Shown: positions 897 through 26,578 of the stretch, in pieces
Layout: every line of letters begins with the position of its first letter
Position numbering within the stretch: the first letter of the stretch is position 1
Virus genome (UHGV): UHGV-2170543
DNA: 33,672 bases
Source of the DNA: a virus
Strand: one strand, 5' to 3'
Notes under the pieces: model-generated
What the model was told of the DNA's origin: nothing
What the model saw: only the letters and a program-made list of their open reading frames with translations
The model's database searches: none
Translations under genes and position numbers: made by a program

Positions 897-1018
897 ACAG
901 TGAGGCGTTGTGTGGCATACAACGCCTTCTTCCATCATTCCTCGTCAGCCATGACAAAAATATAACCGCTGGCTCTTTCATTTTTCTCCTGCGTCCAGCC
1001 CCTCTCTACCTGGAAGCA

Positions 1019-2257: not shown

Positions 2258-2271
2258 GCTTAATCCTCCCT

Positions 2272-3144: not shown

Positions 3145-3180
3145 GGATATATTAAATATTCAGCCGCTGTCCCTGGCCCA

Positions 3181-4061
3181 CTAAATACGCACTTTAAGAT
3201 AAGTCAGCCCCGGATGAAGCCAGTAAGCCGGCACTTTTTTAAAGGGTGGAGTATTAAAATCACGAAGAAGAGCCTCCCGCACAATTGCATCCTTATCAGC
3301 ACCACTGGCCAGCGCTTCAATCTCAGCGGCTACCTGAAGATATCCCATGCAACGGCCAACGCGCTTCATCAGCCCCTGCTTTTTATTGTTCTTCAGGTAA
3401 TCAATGGCAAATTCAATGAGCTCCTCACTGTGCTGGTGCGATGGAGGTGTTACTTTCCCATTTTCTGAGATGGTTATTTTCCCAGCATCACCGGATACAA
3501 CAAAGGATGGCCGGTTACACTCCCATTCCAGCTCACTGAAATTATCATTATGAATACTGAAACACTCTGCGAGATTTCTGCTCATCACTTTCCGACAATA
3601 ATCGTCAAACGCAGCAAACTGCTTTTCATCGCCAGAAGGCACCAATATCGACCATTTCTTATTCAGCTCAACGACGTAGCTCTCCAGTTTTTCAATACGT
3701 GATTCAACATCATCTTTTTCTGACCGCAGTGTTGACGGCGGCATCTTCAGAGAACAAGTAATTCTTCCCGGTAGCTTTCCTTTGTAGGTTATCAACACAT
3801 CCTGCGCCTCTAAAATTACGGGGCGCTTTTCCGNNNNNNNNNNNNNNNNNNNNNNNNNNNNTCCATGAAAAACTGCTTCGCCTGCTTTTTCGCCTCAGCT
3901 TCGTAAAACTCCAGCGTGGCACCTTCAGTACGGTCAAGACTAATCGCCACATTTGGCAACAACAGTGACGGATACCCACCAATTTCCAGTACCACAGTAA
4001 CAGTAATCTTATCCGGGTAATTATTTATCCCTTTAACAACCAGTTCGTATTTTTTCTTCAT
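3181..4061 (-). CDS. hypothetical late protein between S and R with a copy-specific about 180-aa C-terminal extension; interrupted by assembly gap
   Basis: N-terminal MKKKYELVVKGINNY... matches copy B gene 33208-33561; after the gap the frame continues ITYKGKLPGRITCSLKMPPSTLRSEKDD... to 3181, whereas copy B stops at ...SLKTPPESQP; frame across the N-run not verifiable. Confidence 0.4.
3834..3861. other. assembly gap (N run, 28 nt) inside S-R intergenic gene
   Basis: Run of n characters; length does not match copy B (about 38-39 nt expected). Confidence 1.
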
Positions 4062-4065
4062 CGCT

Positions 4066-4278
4066 TTACTCTCCCCGCGCCGCCTTACGCCGGTCCTCTC
4101 TGATTTTGAAATACAGGTTAGTCAGGTACGTCAGCAGCCCAAACAGCAGACTCCCCAGCACGCCTATTGCCGCCCACTGAGACGGGGAAACCCTGTCCAG
4201 CAACTGCNNNNNNNNNNNNNNNNNNNNCGCTGACGTGGTGTATGACACACCTGTTGTGATTTTTTCCATCTGGTACAT
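4066..4278 (-). CDS. S: class II holin / pinholin (S21-like)
   Basis: [17 protein letters not shown]...[46 protein letters not shown]; two TM segments; contains N run 4208-4227. Confidence 0.8.
4208..4227. other. assembly gap (N run, 20 nt) inside holin gene
   Basis: Run of n characters. Confidence 1.
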
Positions 4279-4354
4279 ACCCCGTCTCCCGTTATCCGGA
4301 AGCTCACAACAATATAAAGACCACCGGCACACACCGATGGTCCCTTGCGCAGGC

Positions 4355-4600
4355 TTACATCATCATGTCGCTGTCAGGTGTGGGTTCACCGCCATCTGAA
4401 GCACTCCCGTCACCCGCGATACCTTCCGGCTCCGGAACCGCTGGTACGCCCAGCAGCTCATCCAGAATGGCATCCACTTCTGCATCAAGACGCGCCTCAA
4501 GGTTCTGGCGGAGTTTCTGTTTCAGTGCGCTCAGGACTTCTTCAGAGCGCAGGACTTCCTTCACTGCCTCAGCAGTGACCAGGGATGTGATTTCTGACAT
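4355..4600 (-). CDS. hypothetical acidic protein
   Basis: MSEITSLVTAEAVKEVLRSEEVLSALKQKLRQNLEARLDAEVDAILDELLG... acidic C-terminal tail; weak RBS; present only in copy A between nanS-p and S. Confidence 0.3.
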   Translation of the reverse strand: MSEITSLVTAEAVKEVLRSEEVLSALKQKLRQNLEARLDAEVDAILDELLGVPAVPEPEGIAGDGSASDGGEPTPDSDMMM

Positions 4601-4637
4601 GGGATTTTCTCGTTGAAAGGTGTTGTCAAGAAAGTGA

Positions 4638-4820
4638 CTACGGAATGAGCGGATCTTCGGGTTTGCTTCCGGCTGACTGACTGGCGCTGATTCTCTCAGC
4701 GGCCCTTTTATCAATCTGCCTGCGCCAGAAATCGCGCACTGCCCTGTACCCACCCGAAAGAAGATACATAACACAGACTGCCGTACAGAAGTACAGCATC
4801 ACCTGATGAATAAATGTCAT
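4638..4820 (-). CDS. small single-TM membrane protein
   Basis: MTFIHQVMLYFCTAVCVMYLLSGGYRAVRDFWRRQ...; only in copy A upstream of holin. Confidence 0.25.
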   Translation of the reverse strand: MTFIHQVMLYFCTAVCVMYLLSGGYRAVRDFWRRQIDKRAAERISASQSAGSKPEDPLIP

Positions 4821-4956
4821 AATTTCTTACCGTTATGGTTGACAATGAGAACTGTTTTCATTTAAAAAACCGATATACGAAAGCATCTTTTCTTTACATT
4901 CTCCATTGGGATTACCTCCGCCAGCTTCCATTCCTGCCGCTGGCGGCCTTTTTTTA

Positions 4957-6918
4957 TCATGCCGCGGCATCCGCGTTGTTCACTTCCACCTTCACACTGT
5001 CAATCAGCAGCGTATATGTCGCCGCCTTTGATATGCCTGTCAGTTGCAGTTTGTCCGCCGCCCCTGATGCCGGAGATTTCACCAGTGTGAACGGCGTCCC
5101 CCGTTTCTCATCCAGTACCGGCGTCACCTGAATGCTGTTGTTTCCGGCAAACTCAAAAGCCAGTGTGTGCCATCCGTTATCAAAGACCCCGAACGTATCC
5201 AGCTTCGCATTCGGCTTCTTGTGGTGCATCGCGTTCAGGTTCGTCGCATCCGTCTGCAGGAAGAAGGACATCAGCATGTCGTTGCCTTCCTCTGCCAGCG
5301 TCACTCCCTCCGGCAGGGACGACAACTGCCAGTAAATGCCCAGGGCAAACTGATTCGGCACCAGTGAACCCGGCAACTTAAACCGTACGCTCACACGTCC
5401 TCCTTTCTTCAGCAACTCTGCCCCCTGCCCGGCTGCATCATGCTCCAGAAACCAGATGTGGTTTTCCGGTTTATTCAGTTGCAGGGCCTTACCTCCCGTA
5501 GCCCCCGCATCACTGACCACCGCTTCAGCAATGTTTTTGTTAACATTGTCTCCGCTCGCCGGTTTGTGATAATAGCGCCAGCCCTGTGATGCCAGGTCTT
5601 CGCCGGACGCCAGCAGACTCATCAGGGTTCGGTTACTGACCGGACCTTCCGGCTCTCTCTCCGTACCTTCACCGGAAGGTCCGGTGGGCTTCACCGTATC
5701 AGGCTGTTTTCCGGTAATGAATTCAGCGGTTCTCCCGGCATGCACAAGAATCGCCGTTGCCAGACGGTCGGAAATAATCCCACGACGTGCCCATGATCCA
5801 AAATGCGTTTTACGGTCAGCCGTCGTCCAGGTTTTGGCGTCCGTTCGACCACCGGCTCCGTAATACCCAATATCCGCAACATCCGGATCTTCTGACGGCT
5901 CGTTGGTACCCACATTTCGCCCGTTTTCATCCGTCATAAACGGCACAAAGAAGATTTTTTTTGCGGATTTCGTCTTATATGCACCATACACCGCATCGTA
6001 TTGCGAAGAATAAGTCTGCTTCCAGTAGTAGGTCGTGTCGCCACAAATCCAGGGAACTGATGACGGAGAGCCCCCGAGACACTGACCTCCGAATTCCGAC
6101 AGGTCAGAACGATATTTTTCCACCATGGAATCAAACAGCCCCGGCTGAGTGGCGTATGCACCCTGTTTCAAATCAAACTCGCCCTGCATCCAGACCACTG
6201 CAAGCAGAATATTTTTAGGGTTGGCCTTCAGTGCGGCCTGAGTACGGGTAAGCAGGTCCTTGTACAGTGGCTTATCTACACCCCAGCGTGCCGAGGTCTC
6301 GCTTGCGCCGGTGGATTCGCTGAAGGTACCTTCATCGCCCGCCAAAAATGCAGAACCACCACGGCAGCACGGAACCAGAAGAATACCGGCATTCGCCGGA
6401 ATAAACGGCAACAATTTCTTCGCGATATGTAATCCCTGCCCCACGCATCCATACTGAGCTGCGCTGGCTTTCGGGTGTGAAAACTTACTCAAATCCTGAA
6501 CATCATGCAGGCAGTGGTCCGCAGGAATAATGTCATTGTAGTTACAGGACGCACCACCCGGCGTGACAGTGCTGCGACGCGCCAGCTGTTTAATACGCGG
6601 GTCCGGACGGTCATATGTCTCCGGCAGCGGAAGCCCTTCACCATACGCCATACCGTTTGACTGCCCGGCCAGGGCAACAACAAAGTAATACTCCGGGTTG
6701 CTGGTAGTGCTGATAACTGCGCCTTCTCCATCCGACGGCTTCACCACCACAGGTGTGGTGACATCACCTTCCGCCGCAATGGCCTGCATCAGGGTATAAG
6801 GCGTGATGGCCACCGGACTGCCAAATGGCTGCCACCCCTCCTTCAGTTTTTGTGTCAGTCGTTTCGCAAGGTCTGACGGCGATGCCGCCCTGACCACGTC
6901 ATAGTGTTTAAATGCCAT
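4957..6918 (-). CDS. nanS-p: NanS-p-like 9-O-acetyl-sialate esterase (DUF1737 N-terminus + SASA/SGNH domain), copy A
   Basis: 653 aa; N-terminal MAFKHYDVVRAASPSDLAKRLTQKLKEGWQPFG; GQSN SGNH-hydrolase motif (VVALAGQSNGMAYGEG); located downstream of phage tRNA cluster as in Stx-type phages. Confidence 0.8.
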   Translation of the reverse strand: MAFKHYDVVRAASPSDLAKRLTQKLKEGWQPFGSPVAITPYTLMQAIAAEGDVTTPVVVKPSDGEGAVISTTSNPEYYFVVALAGQSNGMAYGEGLPLPETYDRPDPRIKQLARRSTVTPGGASCNYNDIIPADHCLHDVQDLSKFSHPKASAAQYGCVGQGLHIAKKLLPFIPANAGILLVPCCRGGSAFLAGDEGTFSESTGASETSARWGVDKPLYKDLLTRTQAALKANPKNILLAVVWMQGEFDLKQGAYATQPGLFDSMVEKYRSDLSEFGGQCLGGSPSSVPWICGDTTYYWKQTYSSQYDAVYGAYKTKSAKKIFFVPFMTDENGRNVGTNEPSEDPDVADIGYYGAGGRTDAKTWTTADRKTHFGSWARRGIISDRLATAILVHAGRTAEFITGKQPDTVKPTGPSGEGTEREPEGPVSNRTLMSLLASGEDLASQGWRYYHKPASGDNVNKNIAEAVVSDAGATGGKALQLNKPENHIWFLEHDAAGQGAELLKKGGRVSVRFKLPGSLVPNQFALGIYWQLSSLPEGVTLAEEGNDMLMSFFLQTDATNLNAMHHKKPNAKLDTFGVFDNGWHTLAFEFAGNNSIQVTPVLDEKRGTPFTLVKSPASGAADKLQLTGISKAATYTLLIDSVKVEVNNADAAA

Positions 6919-7371
6919 GAATCCTCCCGGCCGGGATAATATTGTGAGTAAAATAAGGAGCGGGCTGAAGTCCGGAAGTTACAGGACAATGGCAGAAGAG
7001 AGACGACAGCCCGCAATTCGAAAAAGACCGCGCAGTTGCGCAGCCTTATGAATTCTGGTTAAAATCCATTCGATTATAAAAATGTATATCTCATGCTGTT
7101 GCCCGAACCCACTCGGGCTTTTTTTTGCCCACAAGAAAGCCCCTCCGGAGAGGGGCTAAAGCCGCGTATCTGTATCATCATGCACATGATGCCGGGTGCC
7201 TCCCGGTGAGTTCAGTATCAGCACCTGAACCCGCACAGAAAGGATAAGGGTCGGTGACAAAACACCAGTTGCTGATTGCCCCTCCGCACAGGGGGATTCA
7301 CCATGCCAGTTTCTTTTAACAAACTCCCCGCAAAACAGACAACTGTCAACCGTCTGAATTGTGAGACATTT

Positions 7372-7688: not shown

Positions 7689-8402
7689 TCAATAATCAAG
7701 CCCTTGCCTGGATACATATCTGTCTGGCGGGAAGCCATAATAGCGGTGAAATACAGAAATAAAGTAGGACCTGCTTGAATAACCGCATTTTTCTGCTATA
7801 GCCTGTCCATATCCATGCCGGGAACATAACATATTTACAGCAACACGCATCCGCTCTTCCAGCAACAAGCGACTGAACATGCCCCCTTCATTTTTCAGTT
7901 TTGTCTTTAACAAACTCTCACTCATATGCAACTGTAGAGCAATCGCACCAAGCGTCCAGCTTGCTGATATATCTGTCTGAATTATCGCCCTGACTTTGGC
8001 ACTTATGCTGGATAAACATCCACTTAAAAACAATGACATCCGTTCATCTGTTTCAAACAGAGACAGGCAGGCCATCATAAGAAACATATCCGTGGCCTCT
8101 CCGGAAAATCCCTGGCTGGTAATTAAAGCCGCAGCCAACGCAGGATTGTTGGGTTCCAGCAACAGGTAAAGCGGAATGTCAGTCAGACGAGTCCTCGTCA
8201 GCTTATGCTGACTTTCCAGATATTGACTTACGACGGATTCGCTTATATCGACAATTTTAACTTTGCCATAATGCATAAGGAAAAGCTCCCTGATGCATTT
8301 GGTGGCCAGAACAACTGAGCCTGGCTTAAGTGACAACGTATCCTTTTCAAGAAAAATATTAATTGGGGAGCAAACCATGATAACTGAACAGACAACAGCC
8401 AT
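7689..8402 (-). CDS. AraC-family transcriptional regulator (prophage-encoded)
   Basis: C-terminal AraC-type double HTH (ISASWTLGAIALQLHMSESLLKTKLK...RHGYGQAIAEKCGYSSRSYFISVFHRYYGFPP); start codon uncertain (8402 or 8378). Confidence 0.7.
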   Translation of the reverse strand: MAVVCSVIMVCSPINIFLEKDTLSLKPGSVVLATKCIRELFLMHYGKVKIVDISESVVSQYLESQHKLTRTRLTDIPLYLLLEPNNPALAAALITSQGFSGEATDMFLMMACLSLFETDERMSLFLSGCLSSISAKVRAIIQTDISASWTLGAIALQLHMSESLLKTKLKNEGGMFSRLLLEERMRVAVNMLCSRHGYGQAIAEKCGYSSRSYFISVFHRYYGFPPDRYVSRQGLDY

Positions 8403-16932: not shown

Positions 16933-17558
16933 GCGTTAGTTTCTCCACAACCAGAAGCAATCGACGCCACGACGCCCGGAGCTGCACACTCGCGGGCGTT
17001 ACTCTTTTCCGGCGCACAAAAAACACGAAATAACAGTGTTAAATGCTCCTGCCACTTCGCCATTACTTGGTAGCTGTTCTCTTCGATTTGCTCACGCTCA
17101 GCCTGGTCAATAACTCCATCAGCAGTTGCCTTGCGTAAGTACTGGGAATGCTTGCCAATCCATTCTATTGACTCCATCAGCCGCTGATTAATGTCACCAT
17201 TGTCAATGTCATCAATGACCACCAGCGGCACAAACACCCCATTACTACGACGGGCTATTGCATCCGTTACATGCCTGGTACCACTGGCATCCTGTAAAAC
17301 CATGGCCCACTCAAGTGGAAAAATTTGATCCCCACCGCTACGCAGTCTGTTATGCAATTGATCTTTTGCTGGGGTGATATCATCAGATTTATACAAACCA
17401 AGAATTTCTGCTGCTTCCTCATAGCCATGAGGTAAATCAGCAATCGTTCTTCGTATTGCTGCCACCAGCCATGCTGGTTGCTTATCAACTTTCCATTCAG
17501 GTTCTTTACCCACGTTTAAGCCCTCATATCTGTGGTTTCTGTAAATCGATTTATCCAT
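16929..17558 (-). CDS. hypothetical early protein in cII position (YdaT-like?)
   Basis: About 209 aa from MDKSIYRNH...; directly follows cro; family uncertain. Confidence 0.5.
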
Positions 17559-17751
17559 TAGATTTTTCATAAAGCTCAGGTTTAAATGGCAACCGTCCGC
17601 AAGTTCTATATGCAGCCTCTGCTGCACGTCCTTTTGGAATTAACTGGCCAGGACGGTTTCGCCACTGATAAACGGCTTCAGTTGTTATGCCGAAAAAAGC
17701 AGCAACTTTCTCAATGCTGCCGAAGTAGCTTTCGATATCGTCAGTCGTCAT
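17551..17751 (-). CDS. cro: Cro-like HTH regulator
   Basis: 66 aa; FGSIEKVAAFFGITTEAVYQWRNR HTH; divergent from CI-like repressor. Confidence 0.7.
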   Translation of the reverse strand: MTTDDIESYFGSIEKVAAFFGITTEAVYQWRNRPGQLIPKGRAAEAAYRTCGRLPFKPELYEKSNG

Positions 17752-17848
17752 ATGCCCTCCAAACTAAGTTTTATTAGATGTTAATTATCAATCTATCTTA
17801 GGTCAATAAAAACTAAGATTACTTAGTAATTAAAGAAATGGTGCTCCT
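17752..17848. promoter_or_regulatory. immunity-region operator/promoter interval (OR/PR/PRM)
   Basis: Inverted half-sites ACTAAG-ATTA-CTTAGT at 17811-17826, further CTAAG/CTTAG copies at 17763 and 17796; minus-strand PR candidate -35 TTGACC (17805-17800), 17-bp spacer, -10 TAACAT (17782-17777). Confidence 0.5.
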
Positions 17849-18475
17849 ATGGAAACGGTTGGTCAGCGTATAAAAGCTCTGAGAAGAGTTACCAGAACGT
17901 CCCAGAAAGAATTGGGTAAATTTTGTGGAGTAAGTGACGTTGCTGTGGGGTACTGGGAGAAAGACATCAATGTCCCTGGTGGGGAAGCACTTTCAAAATT
18001 AGCGAAGTTCTTCAATACGTCAATAGATTACATTCTTTATGGTGCGGAGTTTGAAGGCAAACTCGTCACAAACATGCGCAGAGTTCCTGTAATCTCGTGG
18101 GTTCAGGCTGGGCAGTTTACTGAGTGCAGGACAGCAGAAGTGTTTAGTGAAGTAGACAAGTGGGTAGATACATCATTAAAGATTGGTGATAACTCATTTG
18201 CATTGGAGGTTAAAGGCGACTCCATGACTAACCCTAACGGCCTCCCAACAATACCAGAAGGCGCAACAGTGATTGTAGATCCTGATGCAGAACCCCGGCA
18301 TGGAAAAATAGTCATCGCTAGACTTGATGGAACAAACGAAGCCACAGTAAAAAAATTAGTTATCGATGGCCCTCAAAAGTTTTTAGTGCCATTAAATCCC
18401 CGGTACCCCAACATCCCGATCAATGGTAATTGCCTCATCATTGGTGTAGTCAAAGGAGTTCAATACGAACTCTAG
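17849..18475 (+). CDS. cI: CI-like repressor (XRE-type HTH + S24 LexA-like peptidase domain)
   Basis: N-terminal HTH SQKELGKFCGVSDVAVGYWEKD; C-terminal GDSM serine and KKL lysine of the S24 Ser/Lys dyad. Confidence 0.85.
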   Translation: METVGQRIKALRRVTRTSQKELGKFCGVSDVAVGYWEKDINVPGGEALSKLAKFFNTSIDYILYGAEFEGKLVTNMRRVPVISWVQAGQFTECRTAEVFSEVDKWVDTSLKIGDNSFALEVKGDSMTNPNGLPTIPEGATVIVDPDAEPRHGKIVIARLDGTNEATVKKLVIDGPQKFLVPLNPRYPNIPINGNCLIIGVVKGVQYEL

Positions 18476-18641
18476 CCCCCCCTTTTCTCTAACCAAAACA
18501 CCGAACTAAGAAAAGTTTGGTGTTTTCTCTTGCCATTAAAACTAAGTTAAGTTAGATTTTATATCAAAGATAACGAACAGGCAGGACGCCCACGAAGTAG
18601 CCGCCTGGGGCATATGAAGTCCAGGATGATTCGTTAGTACC

Positions 18642-18668
18642 AAAAAAGCGCCCTACCGGACGCTTCGC
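18642..18668 (-). terminator. candidate terminator downstream of 2-TM gene
   Basis: Minus-sense AAGCGTCC-GGTA-GGGCGCTT (one mismatch) followed by TTTTTT. Confidence 0.35.
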
Positions 18669-18831
18669 TCTTTAAAAATCAGTAACCCTCACTTTGGGCC
18701 TGGATCTGGTGGCCTGGGACGAGGTGGAATATGAAAAGGCTCTATTGGTCGACTCATTATCCAATCCTATTATGTCTCATTTCTTCGGTTTCGGTGGTTT
18801 CGGCTTCGGAGGTACATGTCCGTGAACTGGA

Positions 18832-19326
18832 TTATGCTTGTTGGTCATCATTAATATCCGTTAGTTCATTCTCTAGAGGTAGATCTCCCGCACACCAAGC
18901 TATAAATTTTTCTTTGGTTGTTAAATCGTACTTAGTTGGAACACCAGCAAAAATACAGGCCCGAATGAAAGCCGCTCGTTCAAGTGATTTCCATGGATTA
19001 CTATCAGTATCTTGGATTTTTAAATACCTAGCTTGCAACTGATCTTCAGGAAGGGTATCAGACTCAATCAGCAGTCTTTTGTAATGCCTCGCTTGCTCTT
19101 TAGACATTCCAGCCTCTTGGCCAAACTGATAGACCAACTGAAGAACCGAAAGTACGGCAACAAACAAACCGAAAATAAATAAATTACTGTACGGGGCGAA
19201 AACTGAAAAACCGAGAACGATTAACATCAACGTTATTAATTTATCAATGCGAGTTAACAACGTGTAATTCATCTTCTCCAATACATAAGAGTAGTGAACA
19301 TAAAATTTATAATCGTCTCTGGTCAT
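18832..19326 (-). CDS. 2-TM membrane protein in the rex-like slot adjacent to cI
   Basis: 164 aa; two hydrophobic helices (LITLMLIVLGFSVFAPY, LFIFGLFVAVLSVLQLVY) then charged cytoplasmic domain; AT-rich; convergent with cI. Confidence 0.55.
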   Translation of the reverse strand: MTRDDYKFYVHYSYVLEKMNYTLLTRIDKLITLMLIVLGFSVFAPYSNLFIFGLFVAVLSVLQLVYQFGQEAGMSKEQARHYKRLLIESDTLPEDQLQARYLKIQDTDSNPWKSLERAAFIRACIFAGVPTKYDLTTKEKFIAWCAGDLPLENELTDINDDQQA

Positions 19327-19711
19327 ATTAGTCTCAGTTTTCCTTGGGTGGTTTTGGAGGAACTGGAGGCTTTTGTCTTAACGGCACATGCCTCTCCTCA
19401 TACTTATCTACACATAGATCCATATAAATCCTTATCGTTGTTGGGGAGGGTTACATAATAACCAAATCCTTGTTGTTGGGGAATAACCAGGTCCACCTCG
19501 CCTGATGTGGCTAAAAGCAGGCACATAACAGCTAAGTATTTTCAACCAGAGAGAATCCTTAGCGTTGTGGTGAATGCGCAGGCTGATGCGCGAAAGACAT
19601 TGCAGCTATTGCGGAAAAGAGCTGTTCGGCGGGGCAATTAAACGCCCGTGAGAGTCTGAAATAACCGCAAGCCGGAGATCAGCACCGGTCACCACAACAG
19701 CCACTGCTTTG

Positions 19712-19757
19712 GCGGTACCAGTTTGTACCCTTGCTTCCGGCTGGTACCGCTCTTTTT
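19712..19757 (+). terminator. strong hairpin terminator in leader of yfdP-like operon
   Basis: Perfect 10-bp stem GCGGTACCAG/CTGGTACCGC with 19-nt loop followed by TCTTTTT. Confidence 0.5.
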
Positions 19758-19894
19758 ACAAAACAGAGAAGAGCATCACCGGACGACGGGCTCATAACCC
19801 AATCCATCCGGGCGGCTGTCACCGCAGGTGTTCTTCTCTGTTTTGTGGAGAAACCAACCGACCTTGCAGGGTCGGTATGATGAGGAGCAGCAAA

Positions 19895-20257
19895 ATGGCT
19901 AGCGTACGCAGTACTGATGTGCAGGTATTTATCGTAGAACTGGACGGCGGCGTATTTGAAACCAAACTCGGCGCAGTTCTCAGTGAAGTCGCTTCCGGTG
20001 TGATGAACACGAAAAACAAAGGTAAAGTCTCGGTCAATCTGGACATCGAACCGTTTGATGAGAACCGTGTGAAAATCAAACACAAACTCTCATATGTTCG
20101 CCCGACTAACCGCGGGAAAATCTCCGAAGAAGACACCACCGAAACGCCGATGTATGTCAATCGAGGTGGTCGCCTGACTATTCTGCAGGAAGACCAGGGA
20201 CAATTACTGACTCTTGCCGGTGAACCTGACGGAAAACTCCGCGCAGCAGGTCGTTAA
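19895..20257 (+). CDS. YfdP-like hypothetical protein
   Basis: 120 aa from MASVRSTDVQVF with GAGGAG RBS; first gene of a block resembling CPS-53 yfdPQRST by order and lengths. Confidence 0.45.
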   Translation: MASVRSTDVQVFIVELDGGVFETKLGAVLSEVASGVMNTKNKGKVSVNLDIEPFDENRVKIKHKLSYVRPTNRGKISEEDTTETPMYVNRGGRLTILQEDQGQLLTLAGEPDGKLRAAGR

Positions 20258-20322
20258 TATCGTTCGTAATAAACTGATTATTTATCTCATCACTGAATAT
20301 CTTTATATAGTGAGGACTTATT

Positions 20323-21147
20323 ATGTCTCAGAACTTAGACGCAACCGCAATTAATCAAATCCATGCCCTTATTTCTGCTCAGGGTGTTAATGAAATTATC
20401 AGTAAGATTGGTGCCGATGCTGTGGCATTGCCTGAGAATTTCCGCATTCATGATCTGGAAAAATTTAATTTAAATCGCTTCCGTTTCCGTGGTGCACTTT
20501 CCACTGCCAGCATCGATGATTTTACCCGTTATTCTAAAGATCTTGCAGATGAAGGCACCCGCTGCTTTATCGATGCCGATAATATGCGTGCCGTCAGTGT
20601 GCTTAACCTGGGTACTATTGATGAGCCAGGTCACGCAGATAACACTGCCACTCTCAAACTGAAAAAGACAGCACCGTTCTCTGCTCTGTTGTCTGTTAAC
20701 GGCGAGCGTAACTCCCAGAAGTCACTGGCAGAATGGATCGAAGACTGGGCCGACTACCTTGTGGGCTTTGATGCTAATGGTGACGCTATTCAGGCAACAA
20801 AAGCGGCTGCGGCAGTCCGTAAAATCACGATTGAAGCAAACCAGACCGCTGATTTTGAAGATAATGACTTCAGCGGCAAACGCTCCCTGATGGAGTCTGT
20901 CGAAGCGAAGACCAAAGACATTATGCCAGTGGCATTTGAATTTAAATGCGTTCCGTTTGAAGGTCTGAAAGAACGTCCGTTTAAATTACGCCTCAGCATT
21001 ATCACTGGCGATCGTCCTGTACTGGTTCTGCGCATTATTCAGCTGGAAGCGGTGCAGGAAGAAATGGCTAACGAATTTCGTGATCTGCTTGTTGAGAAAT
21101 TCAAAGACAGCAAAGTAGAAACCTTTATTGGTACTTTCACCGCCTGA
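20323..21147 (+). CDS. YfdQ-like protein (DUF2303 family)
   Basis: 274 aa; length and position match yfdQ of CPS-53-type prophages as recalled. Confidence 0.6.
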
Positions 21148-21274
21148 TTTCATTACTGCAAATGCCCCTGCGGGGGCATTTATGGAAACGTAATTAACTC
21201 AATAATCACCGGATGGTGAGGGCTTCCTTTTACCAGAATTCAGCGCGGTGCAGTGCATATACGTGGAGAACAAA

Positions 21275-21811
21275 ATGTCATTTATTAAAACTTTTTCCGG
21301 GAAGCATTTTTATTATGACAAGATAAATAAAGACGACATCGATATTAACGATATCGCGGTTTCCCTTTCAAATATCTGTCGCTTTGCCGGTCATCTTTCG
21401 CACTTCTACAGCGTCGCCCAACATGCGGTTCTTTGCAGCCAGCTGGTGCCGCAGGAATTTGCTTTTGAAGCGTTAATGCATGATGCAACAGAAGCGTATT
21501 GCCAGGACATTCCCGCACCACTGAAACGCCTTCTTCCTGACTATAAACGGATGGAAGAAAAAATAGACGCCGTAATCCGTGAGAAATACGGGTTACCCCC
21601 AGTTATGAGTACACCCGTGAAATATGCCGATCTCATCATGCTGGCAACCGAACGCCGCGATCTCGGGCTTGATGATGGCTCTTTCTGGCCTGTACTGGAA
21701 GGCATCCCGGCAACAGAGATGTTCAACGTGATTCCACTGGCACCGGGTCATGCCTACGGGATGTTTATGGAACGTTTTAACGATTTATCGGAGTTACGCA
21801 AATGCGCATGA
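21275..21811 (+). CDS. HD-domain phosphohydrolase (YfdR-like)
   Basis: H...HD metal-binding motif (HLSHFYSVAQHAV ... EALMHDATEAY); start MSFIKTF with GGAGAA RBS. Confidence 0.6.
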   Translation: MSFIKTFSGKHFYYDKINKDDIDINDIAVSLSNICRFAGHLSHFYSVAQHAVLCSQLVPQEFAFEALMHDATEAYCQDIPAPLKRLLPDYKRMEEKIDAVIREKYGLPPVMSTPVKYADLIMLATERRDLGLDDGSFWPVLEGIPATEMFNVIPLAPGHAYGMFMERFNDLSELRKCA

Positions 21812-22164
21812 ATGTTTTCGAAATGGAAGGGTTTCTTCGCGGGAAATGTGTACCGCGAGATCTGAAAGTGAATGAAACAAATGCTGAGTACCTGTTACGT
21901 AAATTCGACGCGCTTGAAGCTAAATGTGCGGCACTGGAAAACAAAATAATACCAGTGTCAGCTGAACTGCCACCAGCAAATGAAAGTGTTCTGTTATTTG
22001 ATGCTAACGGAGAAGGCTGGCTAATTGGCTGGCGTTCTCTCTGGTACACCTGGGGACAAAAAGAAACCGGAGAATGGCTGTGGACATTTCAGGTCGGGGA
22101 CCTTGAAAACGTCAATATCACTCACTGGGCAGTAATGCCGAAAGCACCGAAGAATAAAAAATGA
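21802..22164 (+). CDS. YfdS-like hypothetical protein
   Basis: 120 aa, overlaps upstream stop; Trp-rich C-terminus. Confidence 0.45.
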   Translation: MRMNVFEMEGFLRGKCVPRDLKVNETNAEYLLRKFDALEAKCAALENKIIPVSAELPPANESVLLFDANGEGWLIGWRSLWYTWGQKETGEWLWTFQVGDLENVNITHWAVMPKAPKNKK

Positions 22165-22364
22165 GCGTGATAAAAACTCATACAGGAATTGTTATCACCC
22201 GAGACGGTCCGCAGGTAAAAAAACTGCACCAGACAAAGCGGATGTGGGTCGTCGGAAAAAACGAGTTTTACCACAAAGAAACCGGACGCCGCCACTTTGC
22301 AGAAAATACTCGCCGCCGACTGCTGATCGATACCATCAAGCCTATCGAGGTGAAGCATGTTTAA
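22161..22364 (+). CDS. small hypothetical protein
   Basis: 67 aa; ATGA-type overlap with upstream gene. Confidence 0.35.
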   Translation: MSVIKTHTGIVITRDGPQVKKLHQTKRMWVVGKNEFYHKETGRRHFAENTRRRLLIDTIKPIEVKHV

Positions 22365-22596
22365 ACAGAACGAAAAATCTATCGCTCAAATTGCTGAGTA
22401 TATCCCGCGTGCGTGCCGGGATATGCAGTTGCAGGAAGCCAAAGCACGCCTGGAGAAAAAAATTGCGCTCTATATCGATGACGGCTGTGATGCCGCCGTT
22501 CTTAACGCGGCGTTCGCGCCAGCTCTTAACAGTCATACGCGAAAGTCTTTTTTTTCGTGCATCGCAGCGCAGATCCGTAAAGGAGGCAACCAGTGA
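22357..22596 (+). CDS. small hypothetical protein
   Basis: 79 aa; operon-style overlap. Confidence 0.35.
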   Translation: MFKQNEKSIAQIAEYIPRACRDMQLQEAKARLEKKIALYIDDGCDAAVLNAAFAPALNSHTRKSFFSCIAAQIRKGGNQ

Positions 22597-23216
22597 GCAA
22601 CATTAACTATCAGGTACTGCGTGAAAAGGCAGAGAAAGCAACTAAAGGAAGCTACATCGTAGGGCATACATCTGTTAACCAACACGGCAATTTAACAGGA
22701 GTTTTTGTTTGTCAAAAATGGAAAGGAGAACCCGGTGGCGTGATTGCGGAACGTCATGTTAACTGCCTGATTGAAACAGATGCTCAGGCTTATGCAAACG
22801 CTGAGTTCATAGCAGAGGCTAACCCGGCTACCGTGCTGGCACTGCTGGATGAACAGGAAAGAAACCAGCAATACATCAAACGCCGCGACCAGGAGAACGA
22901 GGATATTGCGCTAACGGTAGGGAAGCTGCGCGTTGAGCTTGAGGAGACAAAATCAAAACTCAACGAGCAGCGCGAGTATTATGAGGGAGTTATCTCTGAT
23001 GGGTGCAAGCGTATTGCTGAACTGGAAGCGCGGGAAGTTCAATTACCGACTCGCTACGACCTTCGATATGGACACCCGATAAATGCAGATGAGCGACATG
23101 TCATGATACCTAAAGAAAATGGCAGTTGGCTTTACCTGATTGACCTGGAACACGCATTACGCGTCGCTGGCATTCGCATCAAAGGAGAGGAGCATGGAAA
23201 TAAAACCAGAGGATGA
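22593..23216 (+). CDS. Ea22-like family protein
   Basis: 207 aa; coiled-coil central region; resembles ead/Ea22-like prophage proteins as recalled. Confidence 0.45.
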   Translation: MSNINYQVLREKAEKATKGSYIVGHTSVNQHGNLTGVFVCQKWKGEPGGVIAERHVNCLIETDAQAYANAEFIAEANPATVLALLDEQERNQQYIKRRDQENEDIALTVGKLRVELEETKSKLNEQREYYEGVISDGCKRIAELEAREVQLPTRYDLRYGHPINADERHVMIPKENGSWLYLIDLEHALRVAGIRIKGEEHGNKTRG

Positions 23217-23550
23217 GTTAAGCAATATCGTTTTATTTCCGGTAAAAGAGGATGACCCTCGTAATCAGGTTAATTTTCTTTATGAGCCATCGGAAAGACC
23301 ATATTGTCATCACGCCTCTGTCCGGGTTGACGAAAAAGAGCGTCAGGTCCGCTGTAAAATCTGCGGTGCAGTTGTGGAACCATTTGACTGGATGCTCTCT
23401 GTGGCGAAAAGAGAAACCAGACTGGCAGATGATGTAAGGCTCTTGCGTCAGGAGGAGCGGGAAAGGCGAAAAAATATAGAAAAGCTAATTCAGATTGAGC
23501 GTAACGCGAAAGCGCGGATACGCAGGGCGACAAAATCCAGAACTGAATAA
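23194..23550 (+). CDS. hypothetical protein with C/H zinc-ribbon-like motif
   Basis: MEIKPEDEL start with GGAGAGGAG RBS; PYCHH...CKICG motif; basic C-terminus. Confidence 0.4.
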   Translation: MEIKPEDELSNIVLFPVKEDDPRNQVNFLYEPSERPYCHHASVRVDEKERQVRCKICGAVVEPFDWMLSVAKRETRLADDVRLLRQEERERRKNIEKLIQIERNAKARIRRATKSRTE

Positions 23551-23643
23551 TTAAATTTAGCTCTGTTAAAAATTTAATCCTTAACCGGAGGGATTTCTGC
23601 ACCCTCAGAACATCAGGAGGCCGCCCGAAAGGGCGGTAGTTAA

Positions 23644-23826
23644 ATGCGAAAGTTTAAAATAATTATTGAAACGGGAATAGCCGGTGGAGATTTCGAGGAT
23701 GAATTCGAAGTGGATGATGATGCGACGCCTGATGAAATACATGACGAAGCAAAAGATATTTTCTTTAACTACTGCAATTACTCATATCACGAAATAAAAG
23801 ACGAAGAGGAAGAGCAAAATGGCTGA
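23644..23826 (+). CDS. small acidic hypothetical protein
   Basis: 60 aa ORF. Confidence 0.3.
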   Translation: MRKFKIIIETGIAGGDFEDEFEVDDDATPDEIHDEAKDIFFNYCNYSYHEIKDEEEEQNG

Positions 23827-23995
23827 TTTTGGTTCAACTAAATACAACGTCAGTTTTGAAGCATGGCATGAACTGTTAATGGACTATGCAGAGTTACGTG
23901 GTGGCAGTGCTGCTGATGCTGAAGCATGGCGTGATGATTATGAAGCAGGAAAAACTCCGGTCGAAGCATATTGTGATGAGTGGGGCGATGAATGA
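23819..23995 (+). CDS. small hypothetical protein
   Basis: 58 aa MADFGSTKYNVSFEAWHELLMDY...; overlaps neighbours by start/stop. Confidence 0.3.
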   Translation: MADFGSTKYNVSFEAWHELLMDYAELRGGSAADAEAWRDDYEAGKTPVEAYCDEWGDE

Positions 23996-24306
23996 GCGAG
24001 ATTAATTATCAGGAAGGGCATGAAACGGCAGGGCAGGCAAAACCAGTTGCATGGCGATATCGCTACGTGAAAAAAGGCGTTACGGACTTTCAGGAGAATC
24101 TGTGGGTTGGTGACTGGAAATATGTACCGACAAAAGAGGATTGCAACGACAGGCCGAACTATGAAATTCAGGCCTTATTCGCTGCCCCGCCAGTTCCGGT
24201 GACATCAGAAGAACTGGTTAAAGCTGTGCACTTTTATGAACAACTAAAACGCGAAAATCCACCAGCATCCGGAAACCTGATTACAGATTCCCAGATAAGG
24301 CAATGA
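23992..24306 (+). CDS. hypothetical protein
   Basis: 104 aa ORF, ATGA overlap with upstream. Confidence 0.35.
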   Translation: MSEINYQEGHETAGQAKPVAWRYRYVKKGVTDFQENLWVGDWKYVPTKEDCNDRPNYEIQALFAAPPVPVTSEELVKAVHFYEQLKRENPPASGNLITDSQIRQ

Positions 24307-24476
24307 GCTACCTGGCGCAGAACGGGCTGATAAGTATGGGGAATATTTTGCGATGAATATTTAGACTAAAGAGTTTGTAACGCTATGTAAGTGATTTTTT
24401 CTGGTTTAGATATTTATATGTCCGGCCAAATTGAGGTGTGTTTAAATGTTATTGTACATTGATTGTAGGGGGAATA

Positions 24477-24656
24477 ATGAAAAACGCATTGCAGTTTTTG
24501 TTTGTTGCGTTCTGGTTGTTCGCATCATGTATGCCCATCATCTTCACAGCAAGGTATATGGAAAAAGTTGATGTTTTGATATTAATGTTTGGACATATAA
24601 ATGCCCTTTTTTTAGGGGTGTTCATGGCGGTCATGTGCATTGAATACTGGCGGTAA
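24477..24656 (+). CDS. small 2-TM membrane protein
   Basis: MKNALQFLFVAFWLFASCMPIIF...; AT-rich; GGGGGA RBS. Confidence 0.3.
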   Translation: MKNALQFLFVAFWLFASCMPIIFTARYMEKVDVLILMFGHINALFLGVFMAVMCIEYWR

Positions 24657-24914
24657 ATACAGCGAACGCCATTGGTTTAGTTGGATATTTACTGTGCCGG
24701 ACAAAAACGGTTTGCGGGGAAATCTTAGTTAAGTAGAATGACTGCGGGTGCTTGAGGCTATCTGTCTCAGGCATGAACACCAAAAGGCAGATAGAGAAAA
24801 GCCCCAGTTAACATTACGCGTCCTGCAAGACGCTTAACATTAATCTGAGGCCATATCTATGCGACACATAGAGATTAGCCTCTTACGGACCGAAAGGTCA
24901 AGGAGAAGCAGGCT

Positions 24915-25070
24915 ATGAAGCAGCAAAAGGCGATGTTAATCGCCCTGATCGTCATCTGTTTAACCGTCATAGTGACGGCACTGGTAACGAGGAAAGACCT
25001 CTGCGAGGTACGAATCCGAACCGGCCAGACGGAGGTCGCTGTCTTCACAGCTTACGAACCTGAGGAGTAA
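24915..25070 (+). CDS. hok: Hok/Gef-family type I toxin
   Basis: MKQQKAMLIALIVICLTVIVTALVTRKDLCEVRIRTGQTEVAVFTAYEPEE closely matches the Hok pattern (LTRKSLCEIRYRDG.REVAAF.AYE); short upstream ORF ends in ATGA overlap; palindrome CTATGCGACACATAG upstream. Confidence 0.75.
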   Translation: MKQQKAMLIALIVICLTVIVTALVTRKDLCEVRIRTGQTEVAVFTAYEPEE

Positions 25071-25140
25071 GAGACCAGGCGAGGGGGAAATCCCTCGCCA
25101 CCTCTGATGAGTCAGGCATCCTCAACGCACCCGCACTTAA

Positions 25141-25167
25141 CCCGCTTCGGCGGGTTTTGTTTTTTCC
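25141..25167 (+). terminator. Rho-independent terminator after hok
   Basis: CCCGC-TTCG-GCGGG followed by TTTTGTTTTTT. Confidence 0.55.
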
Positions 25168-25237
25168 TGGCATTCTGGTTTACAATTCGCACGTCAGCCT
25201 GAACACCTGACACCTGCTGCGCCAGCAGAGAAAACAG

Positions 25238-25510
25238 ATGGCGCACAAAACCAAATTTCACAATTCTGATACCGACCTTGCCATCCGGCATGGGCGGCGT
25301 TCACACGCATTTAAAACCGACTGGTACCAACACCCACCATGTACTGAAGAACAGGCCGAATGGCTAATTCATAACTACCGCAGACGCGGATACGAGATTA
25401 AGAAAGCCCTCAGCCTCGATTATCGTCACTGGATAATCTATGTCAGGCTCCCTTATTCCGAACGCTCACCGCGCCCATCCCGCACATTCCAGCAACGCAT
25501 CTGGAGGTAA
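25238..25510 (+). CDS. hypothetical protein
   Basis: 90 aa ORF preceding DUF968 gene. Confidence 0.35.
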   Translation: MAHKTKFHNSDTDLAIRHGRRSHAFKTDWYQHPPCTEEQAEWLIHNYRRRGYEIKKALSLDYRHWIIYVRLPYSERSPRPSRTFQQRIWR

Positions 25511-25511
25511 C

Positions 25512-26566
25512 GTGCGGATATTACTTCGACCTGTTCTGGTACCGGAACTCGGGCTGGTGGTCCTTAGGCCGGGCCGTGAATCCATGCAAGTATTTCATAA
25601 CCCTCGAGTGCTGGTGGAGCCTGAACCGAAAAGCATGCGCGGTCTGCCGTCCGGAGTCGTCCCTGCCGTTCGCCAGCCGCTGGCGGAGGATAAATCATTT
25701 CTGCCATTTTTCAGCGATGAGCGGGTGATTCGTGCTGCTGGCGGCGCTGGGGCACTGTCTGACTGGCTGTTGCGTCATGCCAAATCCTGCCAGTGGCCTC
25801 ATGGTGACTATCATCACAGTGAAATCGTCATACATCGTTACGGTACCGGCGCGATGGTGTTGTGCTGGCACTGCGACAACCAGTTGCGTGACCAGACATC
25901 CGAATCACTCGGGCAACTTGCTCATCAAAACCTGTCAGCATGGATGATTGACGTCATACGCCATGCAATGAATGGCACGCAGGAGCGGGAATTGTCGCTG
26001 GCTGAATTATCCTGGTGGGCGGTCCGCAATCAGGTGGCGGACGCGCTACCGGAAGTGGTATTACGTCGTTCGCTGGGGTTGCGTGCGGAAAAAATCCGCT
26101 CAATGTACCGTGAAAGCGACATCGTACCGGGAGNNNNNNNNNNNNNNNNNNNNNNNNNNNNNNNNNNNNNNNNNNNNNNNNNNNNNNNNNNNNNNNNNNN
26201 NNNNNNNNNNNNNNNNNNCCACAGGAAGAGACGGTGGTCAGCATTGCCGTTGATCCTGAGTCTCCGGAATCTTTCATGAAACGACCTAAACGTCGCCGCT
26301 GGGTTAACGAGAAATACAAACGCTGGGTGAAGACACAGCCGTGTGCGTGTTGTGGTAAGCCAGCCGACGATCCCCATCACCTGATTGGTCATGGTCAGGG
26401 CGGAATGGGGACAAAATCTCACGATATTTTCACGCTACCGCTGTGTCGGGAGCATCACAACGAGCTTCATGCGGATCCTCTGGCGTTCGAAGAAAAGCAT
26501 GGTTCTCAGGTTGATTTAATTTTTCGTTTTCTTGATCACGCCTTTGCAACTGGCGTGCTTGGGTAA
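25512..26566 (+). CDS. DUF968-family nin-region protein, copy B (spans assembly gap)
   Basis: GTG start after GGAGG RBS; N- and C-terminal parts paralogous to 10095-11090; interrupted by N run 26134-26218. Confidence 0.55.
26134..26218. other. assembly gap (N run, 85 nt) inside DUF968 gene
   Basis: Run of n characters. Confidence 1.
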
Positions 26567-26578
26567 AAGAGGTGACTG

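What the first reader, a model, noticed from the sequence alone, without database searches (positions are those of the whole stretch)
24306..25238. Junction between early-left block and second nin/Q module lacks integrase/att and carries a hok-type toxin
The plus-strand yfdP-T/ea22-like accessory genes end at 24306. After an AT-rich small membrane-protein gene and a Hok toxin locus, the sequence continues on the same strand into DUF968-rusA-Q-late genes of a second module. No integrase, excisionase or attachment core is present, and the second module has no immunity or replication genes in the window. This looks like a recombinational fusion of two prophages, or a prophage remnant, with a type I toxin-antitoxin locus at the scar.
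Basis: seen in the sequence. Interest (0 to 1): 0.45.

Follow-up and report, generated by a model that had tools for sequence, protein, structure and literature searches.

The report
Ordinary prophage hok locus; misplaced junction
The flagged interval is a normal stretch of an E. coli lambda-like prophage with a well-known Hok/Sok toxin-antitoxin locus; the real break between two prophages lies about 1.5 kb upstream, in a shared 596-bp gene segment, and is probably a draft-assembly error.

Summary
But 24306-25238 is not a junction. It is collinear with more than 800 complete E. coli genomes and with induced phages. In them the cassette 118-aa protein, DUF7167, small ORFs, hokD, rem-like, DUF968, RusA, Q lies between the replication genes and Q.

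The hok locus looks complete: leader, 19-codon mok, hok, 5'/3' fold-back pairing, terminator and a likely antisense Sok.

The real switch from the early-left arm of an mlrA-type prophage ("A") to this cassette ("B") lies inside the ead/Ea22-like gene, in a 596-bp segment (22594-23189) that both prophage types carry.

I think this join is more likely a scaffolding error than a real recombination, for these reasons:
- The window is a scaffolded draft. Its three N runs have lengths that disagree with every reference.
- The repeat shows an A-B-A-B mix of SNPs seen in no complete genome.
- A second sharp switch (B to an ompW-type prophage, "C") falls exactly on an N gap.
- The closest closed genome holds A and C as separate, complete prophages.
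- No collection searched holds the hybrid junction.

A real recombination between prophages remains possible, at about 25%.

The parts
17849..18475 (+). Repressor of prophage A (LexA/S24 family, cI-like). It heads the early-left (pL) transcription unit on the + strand. Its cro lies divergently at 17551-17751 (-).
   Evidence: Pfam Peptidase_S24 1.6e-27 plus HTH_3; P22_Cro 4.4e-11. Annotated this way in AP045810, which is 99.9% identical.
19895..22596 (+). Early-left accessory genes of prophage A: yfdP, yfdQ, yfdR, yfdS and two small hypothetical genes.
   Evidence: Only 1 mismatch to the mlrA prophage of AP045810 over window 9000-22593; annotation. In all 10 distinct contexts of the 79-aa protein (22357-22596), the operon ends in Ea22, DUF551/DUF4222, xis and int.
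22593..23216 (+). ead/Ea22-like ORF (207 aa). Positions 22594-23189 (596 bp) are shared by the pL arm of A-type prophages and the nin region of B-type prophages. This is the actual switch point.
   Evidence: Pfam Ead_Ea22 9.7e-41. The A match ends at 23189 and the B match begins at 22594 (alignment). The SNP pattern runs A (22599, 22601), B (22742-22805), A (22913-22982), B (23078-23170). No complete genome has this allele; the best is 98.8%.
23194..24306 (+). B-type nin-region genes: a 118-aa Zn-ribbon-like protein (23194-23550), DUF7167 (23644-23826), a 58-aa ORF (23819-23995) and a 104-aa ORF (23992-24306).
   Evidence: Pfam DUF7167 7.9e-15. Only 1 mismatch to Eco889 over 22983-25076. All 10 distinct contexts are cro, YdaT, O, P and so on, upstream of Hok, DUF968, RusA and Q.
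24477..24656 (+). Small hydrophobic ORF (59 aa) of unknown function, part of the same conserved cassette.
   Evidence: The sequence and its ribosome-binding site are visible. There is no Pfam hit. Its only relatives are close E. coli/Shigella hypothetical proteins, mostly 88-98% identical. Gene callers report it in L020-L022, but PGAP does not annotate it.
24746..25166 (+). Full-length hok mRNA. It holds the 5' tac element (24746-24757), mok (24859-24918, 19 codons, with its TGA overlapping the hok ATG), hok (24915-25070, 51 aa, HokD type), the fbi element (25121-25133) and a terminator (25139-25156 plus a T run).
   Evidence: Rfam RF01794 scores 106.7 bits on the + strand and ends at the hok AUG. 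Pfam HOK_GEF 1.2e-23. The MFE fold pairs the 5' end with 25121-25133, z = -8.6. Terminator. The nucleotides match Eco889 hokD (WP_000813254.1) exactly.
24796..24868 (-). Putative Sok antisense RNA, inferred. It is complementary to the mok start region. A TTGACC -35-like hexamer lies upstream at about 24896-24901.
   Evidence: Minus-strand sequence. It folds into a long hairpin followed by a U-rich tail, z = -5.95. The strict promoter scan found no sigma-70 site, so both ends are inferred by analogy with R1 Sok.
25238..25510 (+). rem-like 90-aa ORF.
   Evidence: No Pfam hit. The homologous position is annotated 'rem' or 'toxin to Rem' in PPompW and vB_EcoS phages.
25512..26566 (+). DUF968 (ydfU-like) gene. 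It looks split only because of the N gap inside it.
   Evidence: Pfam DUF968 hits fall on both halves, profile positions 1-49 and 66-171. The N run is shown.
26134..26218 (.). Scaffold gap of 85 N (80 nt in the references). The second parent switch falls here. To the left the window has 0 mismatches to GN02050's B prophage over 24351-26133. To the right it has 1 mismatch to AP045810's ompW prophage C over 26219-33181.
26579..27624 (+). RusA (26579-26938) and antiterminator Q (26929-27624) of the C-type arm, followed by late genes.
   Evidence: Pfam RusA 1.8e-16 and Phage_antiter_Q 5.6e-84. Synteny with L006.
3834..4227 (.). Two further scaffold gaps (3834-3861, 28 N; 4208-4227, 20 N). They bracket a 346-nt holin/ydfR piece that is a 94% inverted repeat of 33065-33410.
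   Evidence: (the real segments are 38 and 23 nt in the references whose flanks could be found).

Best explanation
The interval 24306-25238 is unremarkable DNA from the nin region (the stretch between the replication genes and Q, read from pR) of a very common E. coli lambdoid prophage family. The cassette is: 118-aa protein, DUF7167, small ORFs, hokD-type hok/mok/sok, rem-like, DUF968 (ydfU), RusA, Q.

The hok locus looks intact and should work like other hok/sok systems. This mechanism is inferred from the family, not tested here:
- A stable, folded hok mRNA is kept silent by pairing between its 5' (tac) and 3' (fbi) ends.
- After 3' processing, translation of the short mok frame is coupled to hok through the overlapping ATGA.
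- The unstable antisense Sok RNA blocks mok.
- Hok is a 51-aa membrane toxin. In the Sp5 prophage, the related hokW-sokW locus helps phage release.

The real discontinuity in the window is 1.1 to 1.7 kb upstream, inside the ead/Ea22-like gene. A 596-bp segment (22594-23189) occurs both in the pL arm of mlrA-type prophages (A) and in the nin region of potC/serU-type prophages (B). The window follows A into this segment and B out of it. That is why xis, int and att of A, and int, immunity and replication of the second module, are all missing.

Most probably the assembler made this A-to-B join. The same holds for a second B-to-C switch at the N gap in DUF968. In that case the source strain carries A, a B-type prophage and C as separate prophages. 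Their shared repeats were collapsed and threaded together into one scaffold.
For: The interval is ordinary:
- 831 of 5426 complete genomes hold at least 80% of 23000-27000 in one place, and 849 hold 23190-24726.
- Induced phage vB_EcoS-640R1 is collinear across 23165-26133, within a normal int...cI | cro, cII, O...Q...late layout.
- All 10 distinct contexts of the 118-aa protein run cI | cro, YdaT, O, P..., DUF7167, Hok, DUF968, RusA, Q.

The hok locus is complete. Literature on hokW-sokW: PMC8621323.

Position of the switch:
- A (AP045810) matches 9000-23189 with 11 mismatches, 10 of them inside the repeat.
- B matches from 22594 on.

Signs of an artefact:
1. The three N runs (28, 20 and 85 nt) stand where the references have 38, 23 and 80 nt. 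They are therefore scaffold gaps with estimated sizes, and the window is a short-read draft.
2. SNPs in the repeat alternate A-B-A-B against parents that are otherwise more than 99.9% identical. This allele occurs in none of the 157 genomes that carry the full repeat. That is expected for a collapsed two-copy repeat.
3. The B-to-C switch is sharp and sits on the N gap. There are 0 mismatches to GN02050 over 1783 nt on the left and 1 mismatch to AP045810's ompW prophage over 6963 nt on the right.
4. AP045810 differs from the window by 1 SNP in 13.6 kb of A and 1 in 7 kb of C. It keeps A (with xis and int at mlrA) and C (with int, cI, O and P at ompW) as separate, complete prophages.
5. At the holin repeat the right arm switches again, to A-type ydfR. 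A 346-nt repeat piece lies between two gaps in the left arm.
6. No complete genome holds the A-to-B junction.
7. Exact-pattern scans for the junction found nothing in genome contigs, viral contigs or metagenome contigs.
8. The hybrid Ea22 protein is not on record.
9. A closed genome that holds both Ea22 copies (CP159118) has them in the parental linkage.
Against: - There are no reads, depth or mate-pair data, so the join cannot be shown to be wrong.
- A collapsed repeat consensus would look the same if the genome really held two recombinant copies, for example after an inversion.
- Contig breaks at repeat edges also occur in correct scaffolds. If the assembler used jumping libraries, the 596-bp repeat would have been spanned by real pairs.
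- AP045810 has no prophage at potC, and I could not show that it holds any B-type prophage. The source strain therefore differs from it in prophage content anyway.
- Lambdoid prophages are naturally mosaic. A B-like nin cassette followed by the same type of Q (PF06323) does exist, though at only 92-95% identity (L026).
Confidence: 0.66

Rival explanations
1. The join is a real recombination between two resident prophages. RecA-dependent (or phage recombinase-dependent) exchange took place in the 596-bp Ea22 segment, between an mlrA-type prophage and a second lambdoid prophage whose nin region carries the same segment. If the two copies are inverted, this inverts the chromosome between them. 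If they are direct, unequal exchange gives a tandem duplication. The product is a locked-in element with no int, xis or att. It has one immunity region and two outward-facing Q/late arms. pL transcription would read through yfdP-S into nin, hok, Q and the late genes.
For: - The switch lies in 596 bp of about 98% identity, which is enough for homologous recombination.
- Recombination between prophages is a documented cause of large inversions in E. coli O157:H7 (Iguchi et al. 2006, cited in PMC6379469).
- B-type prophages occur at sites of either orientation: potC in Eco889 and next to tRNA-Ser/mtfA in GN02050.
- The sequence runs through the repeat without an N gap.
Against: - A single crossover predicts one A-to-B switch of SNPs, not the A-B-A-B pattern seen.
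- A second unprecedented junction, B to C, falls exactly on a scaffold gap, and a third switch falls at the holin repeat.
- No instance was found in 5426 closed genomes or in the other collections.
- The nearest closed relative, and a closed genome holding both copies, show the parental linkage.
Confidence: 0.25
2. The fusion point is at 24306-25238, and the hok/sok locus marks or stabilises the scar of a prophage remnant (post-segregational killing retains the remnant).
For: - The region is AT-rich and intergenic-looking, and lies next to a TA locus.
- GN02050 has a 151-bp indel at 24265-24276 relative to the window.
Against: - The window is collinear across 24200-24760 with phage vB_EcoS-640R1 and has one mismatch to Eco889 over 22983-25076.
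- The genes on both sides of the interval belong to one conserved cassette in every context read and in 831 genomes.
- The parental switch is at 22594-23189.
Confidence: 0.03
3. The whole arrangement is one natural, functional mosaic phage in which these genes simply lie in this order.
For: Lambdoid phages are highly mosaic. Ea22-like genes occur in both pL and nin contexts.
Against: - The element would have two outward-facing Q/late arms around one immunity region, with no int, xis or att. That does not fit a packageable, integrating phage genome.
- No phage record shows this arrangement.
Confidence: 0.02

Closest known systems
hokD (relF)-rem-ydfU-Q segment of Qin-type and PPompW-type lambdoid prophages of E. 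coli
   Same: Same gene order and strand: Hok, rem-like ORF, DUF968/YdfU, (RusA), antiterminator Q, then tRNAs and lysis genes. RefSeq and phage records annotate the homologous positions as hokD/gef, rem, ydfU and rusA. Hok matches WP_000813254.1 (HokD) through exact nucleotide identity with Eco889.
   Different: From memory, K-12 Qin hokD lacks its upstream mok/sok leader because of a rearrangement. Here the complete leader is present. In the window, the upstream neighbours are the pL genes of another prophage rather than cro, O and P.
hokW-sokW of Sakai prophage 5 (Stx2 phage), PMC8621323
   Same: A prophage-borne hok/sok-family type I TA with a 51-aa Hok. It has been shown experimentally to act as a TA system and to help release of the induced phage.
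   Different: I did not compare the sequences residue by residue, and no experiments exist for this copy.
hok/mok/sok of plasmid R1 (the founding hok/sok system)
   Same: Hok/Gef toxin (Pfam), structured leader (Rfam RF01794), tac-fbi fold-back pairing, an upstream coupling frame and an antisense hairpin RNA.
   Different: It sits on a chromosomal prophage, not a plasmid. mok here is only 19 codons and stops at the hok start codon (ATGA), whereas R1 mok, from memory, overlaps most of hok. The Sok promoter does not pass a strict sigma-70 scan.
Homologous recombination between resident lambdoid prophages (large inversions in E. coli O157:H7; Iguchi et al. 2006)
   Same: If the join is real, it is this kind of event: an exchange within a segment shared by two prophages, leaving hybrid prophages that cannot excise.
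   Different: The homology here is short (596 bp) and its SNPs are patchy. The evidence comes from a single draft scaffold only.
CPS-53 (KpLE1)-type yfdP-yfdQ-yfdR-yfdS early-left block
   Same: Same gene families and order downstream of the repressor.
   Different: In every reference context read, the block ends in Ea22, DUF551/DUF4222, xis and int. In the window it does not.

Membership tests
hok/sok type I toxin-antitoxin | Hok/Gef-family toxin ORF of about 50 aa | tested here: met
   24915-25070, 51 aa, Pfam HOK_GEF 1.2e-23. The nucleotides match annotated hokD in Eco889 exactly.
hok/sok type I toxin-antitoxin | Conserved, structured hok mRNA leader | tested here: met
   Rfam RF01794 scores 106.7 bits against a gathering score of 59, over the full model 1-157. 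The hit is on the sense strand and ends at the hok AUG.
hok/sok type I toxin-antitoxin | Upstream mok frame translationally coupled to hok | tested here: met
   ATG at 24859, 19 codons, and the TGA at 24916-24918 overlaps the hok ATG (read directly). It is shorter than R1 mok as I recall it.
hok/sok type I toxin-antitoxin | Long-range 5' (tac) to 3' (fbi) pairing in the full-length mRNA, plus a terminator | tested here: met
   In the MFE fold of 24746-25166, 24746-24757 pairs with 25121-25133, z = -8.6. Terminator at 25139-25156.
hok/sok type I toxin-antitoxin | Antisense Sok RNA with its own promoter | tested here: inconclusive
   The minus strand 24868 to 24796 folds into a hairpin with a U tail, z = -5.95, and a TTGACC hexamer lies upstream. 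The strict promoter scan found none, and there are no expression data.
hok/sok type I toxin-antitoxin | Toxicity of Hok and its neutralisation by Sok | not testable with these tools
   Shown for the related hokW-sokW locus (PMC8621323), but not for this copy.
Nin-region cassette of a single intact lambdoid prophage | Gene order 118-aa, DUF7167, Hok, rem, DUF968, RusA, Q | tested here: met
Nin-region cassette of a single intact lambdoid prophage | Its own cI/cro and replication genes upstream on the same transcription unit, and int/xis at the far end | tested here: not met
   The upstream DNA is the pL operon of prophage A. tblastn finds no int, xis, cI, O or P of B or C type in the window; the B repressor and O queries hit only prophage A's own cI and O-like genes, at 37% and 56% identity.
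Genuine inter-prophage homologous recombinant | A switch of parentage inside a shared homologous segment | tested here: met
   596 bp at 22594-23189.
Genuine inter-prophage homologous recombinant | A single clean transition of parental SNPs | tested here: not met
   The pattern is A-B-A-B, and the allele occurs in no closed genome.
Genuine inter-prophage homologous recombinant | The junction is reproducible in independent assemblies or long reads, and the reciprocal product is present | not testable with these tools
   It is absent from the collections searched. The reads and the rest of the source assembly are not available.
Chimeric scaffold of a draft assembly | The sequence is a scaffolded draft | tested here: met
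   N runs of 28, 20 and 85 nt stand where the references have 38, 23 and 80 nt.
Chimeric scaffold of a draft assembly | Parent switches coincide with repeats or gaps, and the flanks match separate loci of a close relative | tested here: met
   A and C are separate prophages in AP045810.
Chimeric scaffold of a draft assembly | Read-level contradiction of the join | not testable with these tools
   No reads are available.

The most novel reading that the evidence does not exclude
The join is real. Homologous exchange in a 596-bp Ea22 segment fused the early-left arm of an mlrA-type prophage to the nin/Q/late arm of another resident prophage, probably through a chromosomal inversion. The result is a non-excisable, two-headed element. 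A single repressor would control two outward-facing late operons. On induction, pL read-through would co-express hok, a second Q, and the Stk kinase/PP2C pair.
Probability: 0.22. Interest if true: 0.3.

Novelty: already known. Interest (0 to 1): 0.1.

Why it matters
It matters mainly as a caution. Lambdoid prophages in one E. coli genome share segments a few hundred bp long (Ea22, DUF968, holin, tRNA/Q regions). Short-read scaffolds thread through these, so apparent prophage fusions and missing integrases in draft assemblies need read-level support. The hok/mok/sok locus itself is a standard, widespread cargo gene of this prophage family. If the join were real, it would be one more example of recombination between prophages locking a prophage in place and possibly inverting part of the chromosome. 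That process is known.

Tried and rejected
1. Looked for the source record or any independent copy of the hybrid junction.
- An exact pattern joined the A-type SNP patch at 22905-22950, a 239-nt gap and the B-specific 23190-23219. It gave 0 hits in genome contigs, viral contigs and metagenome contigs.
- An exact-sequence look-up of the hybrid Ea22 protein found nothing on record.
- megablast of 21250-24300 found no closed genome with at least 80% coverage in one place.

2. Tested whether the mosaic 596-bp allele exists naturally. The best match is 98.8%.

3. Checked whether AP045810 holds a B-type prophage at potC. It does not: potC and potB are adjacent. I could not check the rest of that genome.

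4. Considered that the N runs are one-for-one masks of real sequence. I rejected this because their lengths differ from the references (by 10, 3 and 5 nt), two of them inside conserved holin/ydfR genes.

5. Considered that DUF968 is a frameshifted pseudogene, which would be a sign of decay. I rejected this: the apparent split is caused by the N gap.

6. Considered that the 151-bp difference at 24265-24276 against GN02050 marks a junction. I rejected this: Eco889 and phage vB_EcoS-640R1 share the window's version.

7. Searched for homologues of the 59-aa ORF. Its only relatives are close E. coli/Shigella hypothetical proteins, so there is no clue to function.

8. Asked whether a B-nin/C-Q mosaic exists. 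L026 has that gene content but is only 92-95% identical, so it neither explains nor excludes the sharp switch at the gap.
Full report
**What the window is.** It is E. coli lambdoid prophage DNA with two outward-facing arms. The minus-strand arm runs leftward from cro (17551-17751). It passes YmfL, two Rha/isrK/C4 modules, an O-like gene, methyltransferase, RusA, KilA-N, DUF968, Q, a WYL protein, an HTH protein, three tRNAs, STnc100, SASA esterase and lysis genes. The plus-strand arm starts with an S24/LexA-type repressor (17849-18475).

**Prophage A.** The closest closed genome is E. coli 23CRST038 (NZ_AP045810). It matches window 9000-23189 in one piece at 99.9%. In that genome this prophage ("A") lies next to mlrA. 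Its plus-strand block is the early-left operon: cI, yfdP, yfdQ, yfdR, yfdS, two small genes, ead/Ea22-like, DUF551, DUF4222, xis, int, then mlrA. Ten distinct genomic contexts of the 79-aa protein just upstream of Ea22 all end in xis and int.

**Where the sequence stops being prophage A.**
- The A match ends at 23189. A different prophage type ("B") matches from 22594 onward. Examples of B are GN02050 (next to tRNA-Ser/mtfA), Eco889 (at potC) and the induced phage vB_EcoS-640R1.
- The 596-bp overlap, 22594-23189, is the body of the ead/Ea22-like ORF (22593-23216; Pfam 9.7e-41).
- In B-type prophages this gene lies in the nin region. The order there is cI | cro, YdaT, O, P, DUF1627, DUF4406, DUF4752, Ea22, 118-aa protein, DUF7167, 58 aa, 104 aa, (59 aa), hokD, rem-like, DUF968, RusA, Q, tRNAs.
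- The flagged interval 24306-25238 is internal to a conserved cassette. 831 closed genomes hold at least 80% of 23000-27000 in one place. 849 hold 23190-24726. Eco889 differs from the window by one base over 22983-25076. Phage vB_EcoS-640R1 is collinear across the interval.

**The hok locus.**
- The Rfam 'sok' model (RF01794) hits the sense strand at 24746-24917 with 106.7 bits. Its last three positions align to the hok AUG, so it describes the hok mRNA leader.
- hok (24915-25070, 51 aa) is a Hok/Gef protein (1.2e-23). Its nucleotides match annotated hokD exactly.
- A 19-codon mok frame (24859-24918) ends in an ATGA overlap with hok.
- The 421-nt transcript 24746-25166 folds with its 5' end paired to 25121-25133 (tac-fbi), z = -8.6. 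It ends in a terminator.
- The minus strand 24868 to 24796 forms a long hairpin with a U tail, z = -5.95. It sits downstream of a TTGACC hexamer. This is a plausible Sok, but it is unproven, because the strict promoter scan found nothing.
- The locus therefore has the full anatomy of a hok/mok/sok module. A related prophage locus, hokW-sokW of Sp5, is a working type I TA that helps phage release (PMC8621323).
- The 59-aa hydrophobic ORF (24477-24656) has a good ribosome-binding site. Its only relatives are close E. coli/Shigella hypothetical proteins.

**What is missing.** tblastn with the int, xis, cI, O and P proteins of A-, B- and C-type prophages finds only A's own repressor and O-like gene. 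The explanation is simply that the window enters the second module downstream of its replication genes.

**Is the A-to-B join biological?** Several results suggest it is not.
1. The window is a scaffolded draft. N runs of 28, 20 and 85 nt replace segments that are 38, 23 and 80 nt in the references. The apparent split of DUF968 is an artefact of the third gap.
2. Outside the repeat, the window differs from A by 1 base in 13.6 kb. To the right of the repeat it differs from B by 1 base in 2.1 kb. Inside the repeat the SNPs alternate A (22599, 22601), B (22742-22805), A (22913-22982), B (23078-23170). None of the 157 closed genomes with the full repeat has this allele; the best is 98.8%. This is what bubble-popping in a collapsed two-copy repeat produces. 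A single crossover would not.
3. There is a second sharp switch, exactly at the N gap in DUF968. The window has 0 mismatches to GN02050's B prophage over 24351-26133, while prophage C is only about 90% identical there. It then has 1 mismatch over 26219-33181 to prophage C, which lies at ompW in the same strain 23CRST038. In that strain C is complete, with its own int, xis, cI, O and P.
4. At the holin repeat (32957-33181) the right arm switches again, to A-type ydfR. The left arm leaves A-type sequence left of about 4990. A 346-nt piece between two gaps is an inverted copy of 33065-33410.
5. The A-to-B junction occurs in no closed genome and in no scanned collection. The hybrid protein is not on record. 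A closed genome that holds both Ea22 copies keeps the parental linkages.

**Caveats.**
- A collapsed repeat tells us that linkage across it is unverified, not that it is wrong.
- If an inversion had really occurred, two recombinant copies would collapse to the same consensus.
- Correct scaffolds also break at repeat edges.
- 23CRST038 has no prophage at potC, so the source strain differs from it in prophage content.
- Exchange between prophages is a documented source of inversions in E. coli (Iguchi 2006, via PMC6379469).
- B-type prophages are found at more than one chromosomal site. I did not establish the relative orientation of the two Ea22 copies in the source strain. An inversion needs inverted copies. 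Direct copies would give a duplication junction.
- I put about 65-70% on assembly chimera and about 25% on a real recombinant.

**Verdict.** The listed features are real, but the interval is not a junction and the hok/sok locus is not at a scar. The true discontinuity is in the Ea22-like gene and is probably an artefact. Everything here is of a known kind, so interest is low.

Noticed in passing
window 27696-29275 (+): A eukaryote-type Ser/Thr protein kinase (Pfam Pkinase 2e-33) and a PP2C phosphatase (3.9e-14) lie as a low-GC pair (36-38%) between Q and the tRNA cluster. The same pair occurs in the ompW prophage of AP045810. From memory, it resembles the Stk exclusion kinase of phage 933W.
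   Followed up: partly
window 14867-16584 (-), RNAs at 15479-15667 and 16345-16530: Two tandem copies of an isrK sRNA, C4 antisense RNA and Rha-family antirepressor module (a P1/P7 immI-like arrangement) lie in the early-right operon of prophage A. The two copies are about 75% identical to each other.
   Followed up: no
window 7071-7335 (-/+), 30087-30277 (+), 30555-30764 (+): There are three STnc100 sRNA copies downstream of the Q/tRNA regions, two of them in tandem on the right arm. An AsxR (anti-Stx2 sRNA) hit scores exactly at its gathering score.
   Followed up: no
window 3834-3861, 4208-4227, 26134-26218: Three N runs have lengths (28, 20, 85) that disagree with the homologous segments in the references (38, 23, 80). 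This marks the window as a scaffolded draft. The 346-nt piece between the first two is a 94% inverted repeat of 33065-33410.
   Followed up: yes
window 32957-33672 and 1-4990: Compared with the closest closed genome, the right (C-type) arm ends in A-type ydfR. The left (A-type) arm switches left of about 4990 to late genes like those of GN02050 and Eco889. These are further parent switches at lysis-cassette repeats.
   Followed up: partly
window 22593-23216; L003 28757-29191; L005 20000-20434: RefSeq annotates the Ea22-like gene as a partial pseudogene (missing its C-terminus) in both the pL context (A-type) and the nin context (B-type). The same truncated module has therefore spread into two different operons of different prophage families.
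   Followed up: partly
window 9013-9657 (-) and 7689-8402 (-): A WYL-domain protein and an HTH protein lie between Q and the tRNA cluster of prophage A. This is a cargo position, and the genes could be regulatory or defence genes.
   Followed up: no
L006 16511-19643 (AP045810 ompW prophage): In the closed relative, a 651-nt hypothetical gene, an HTH gene and an IS3 element are inserted between hokD and the rem-like gene. The spacer downstream of hok is therefore a hotspot for cargo and IS insertion.
   Followed up: no
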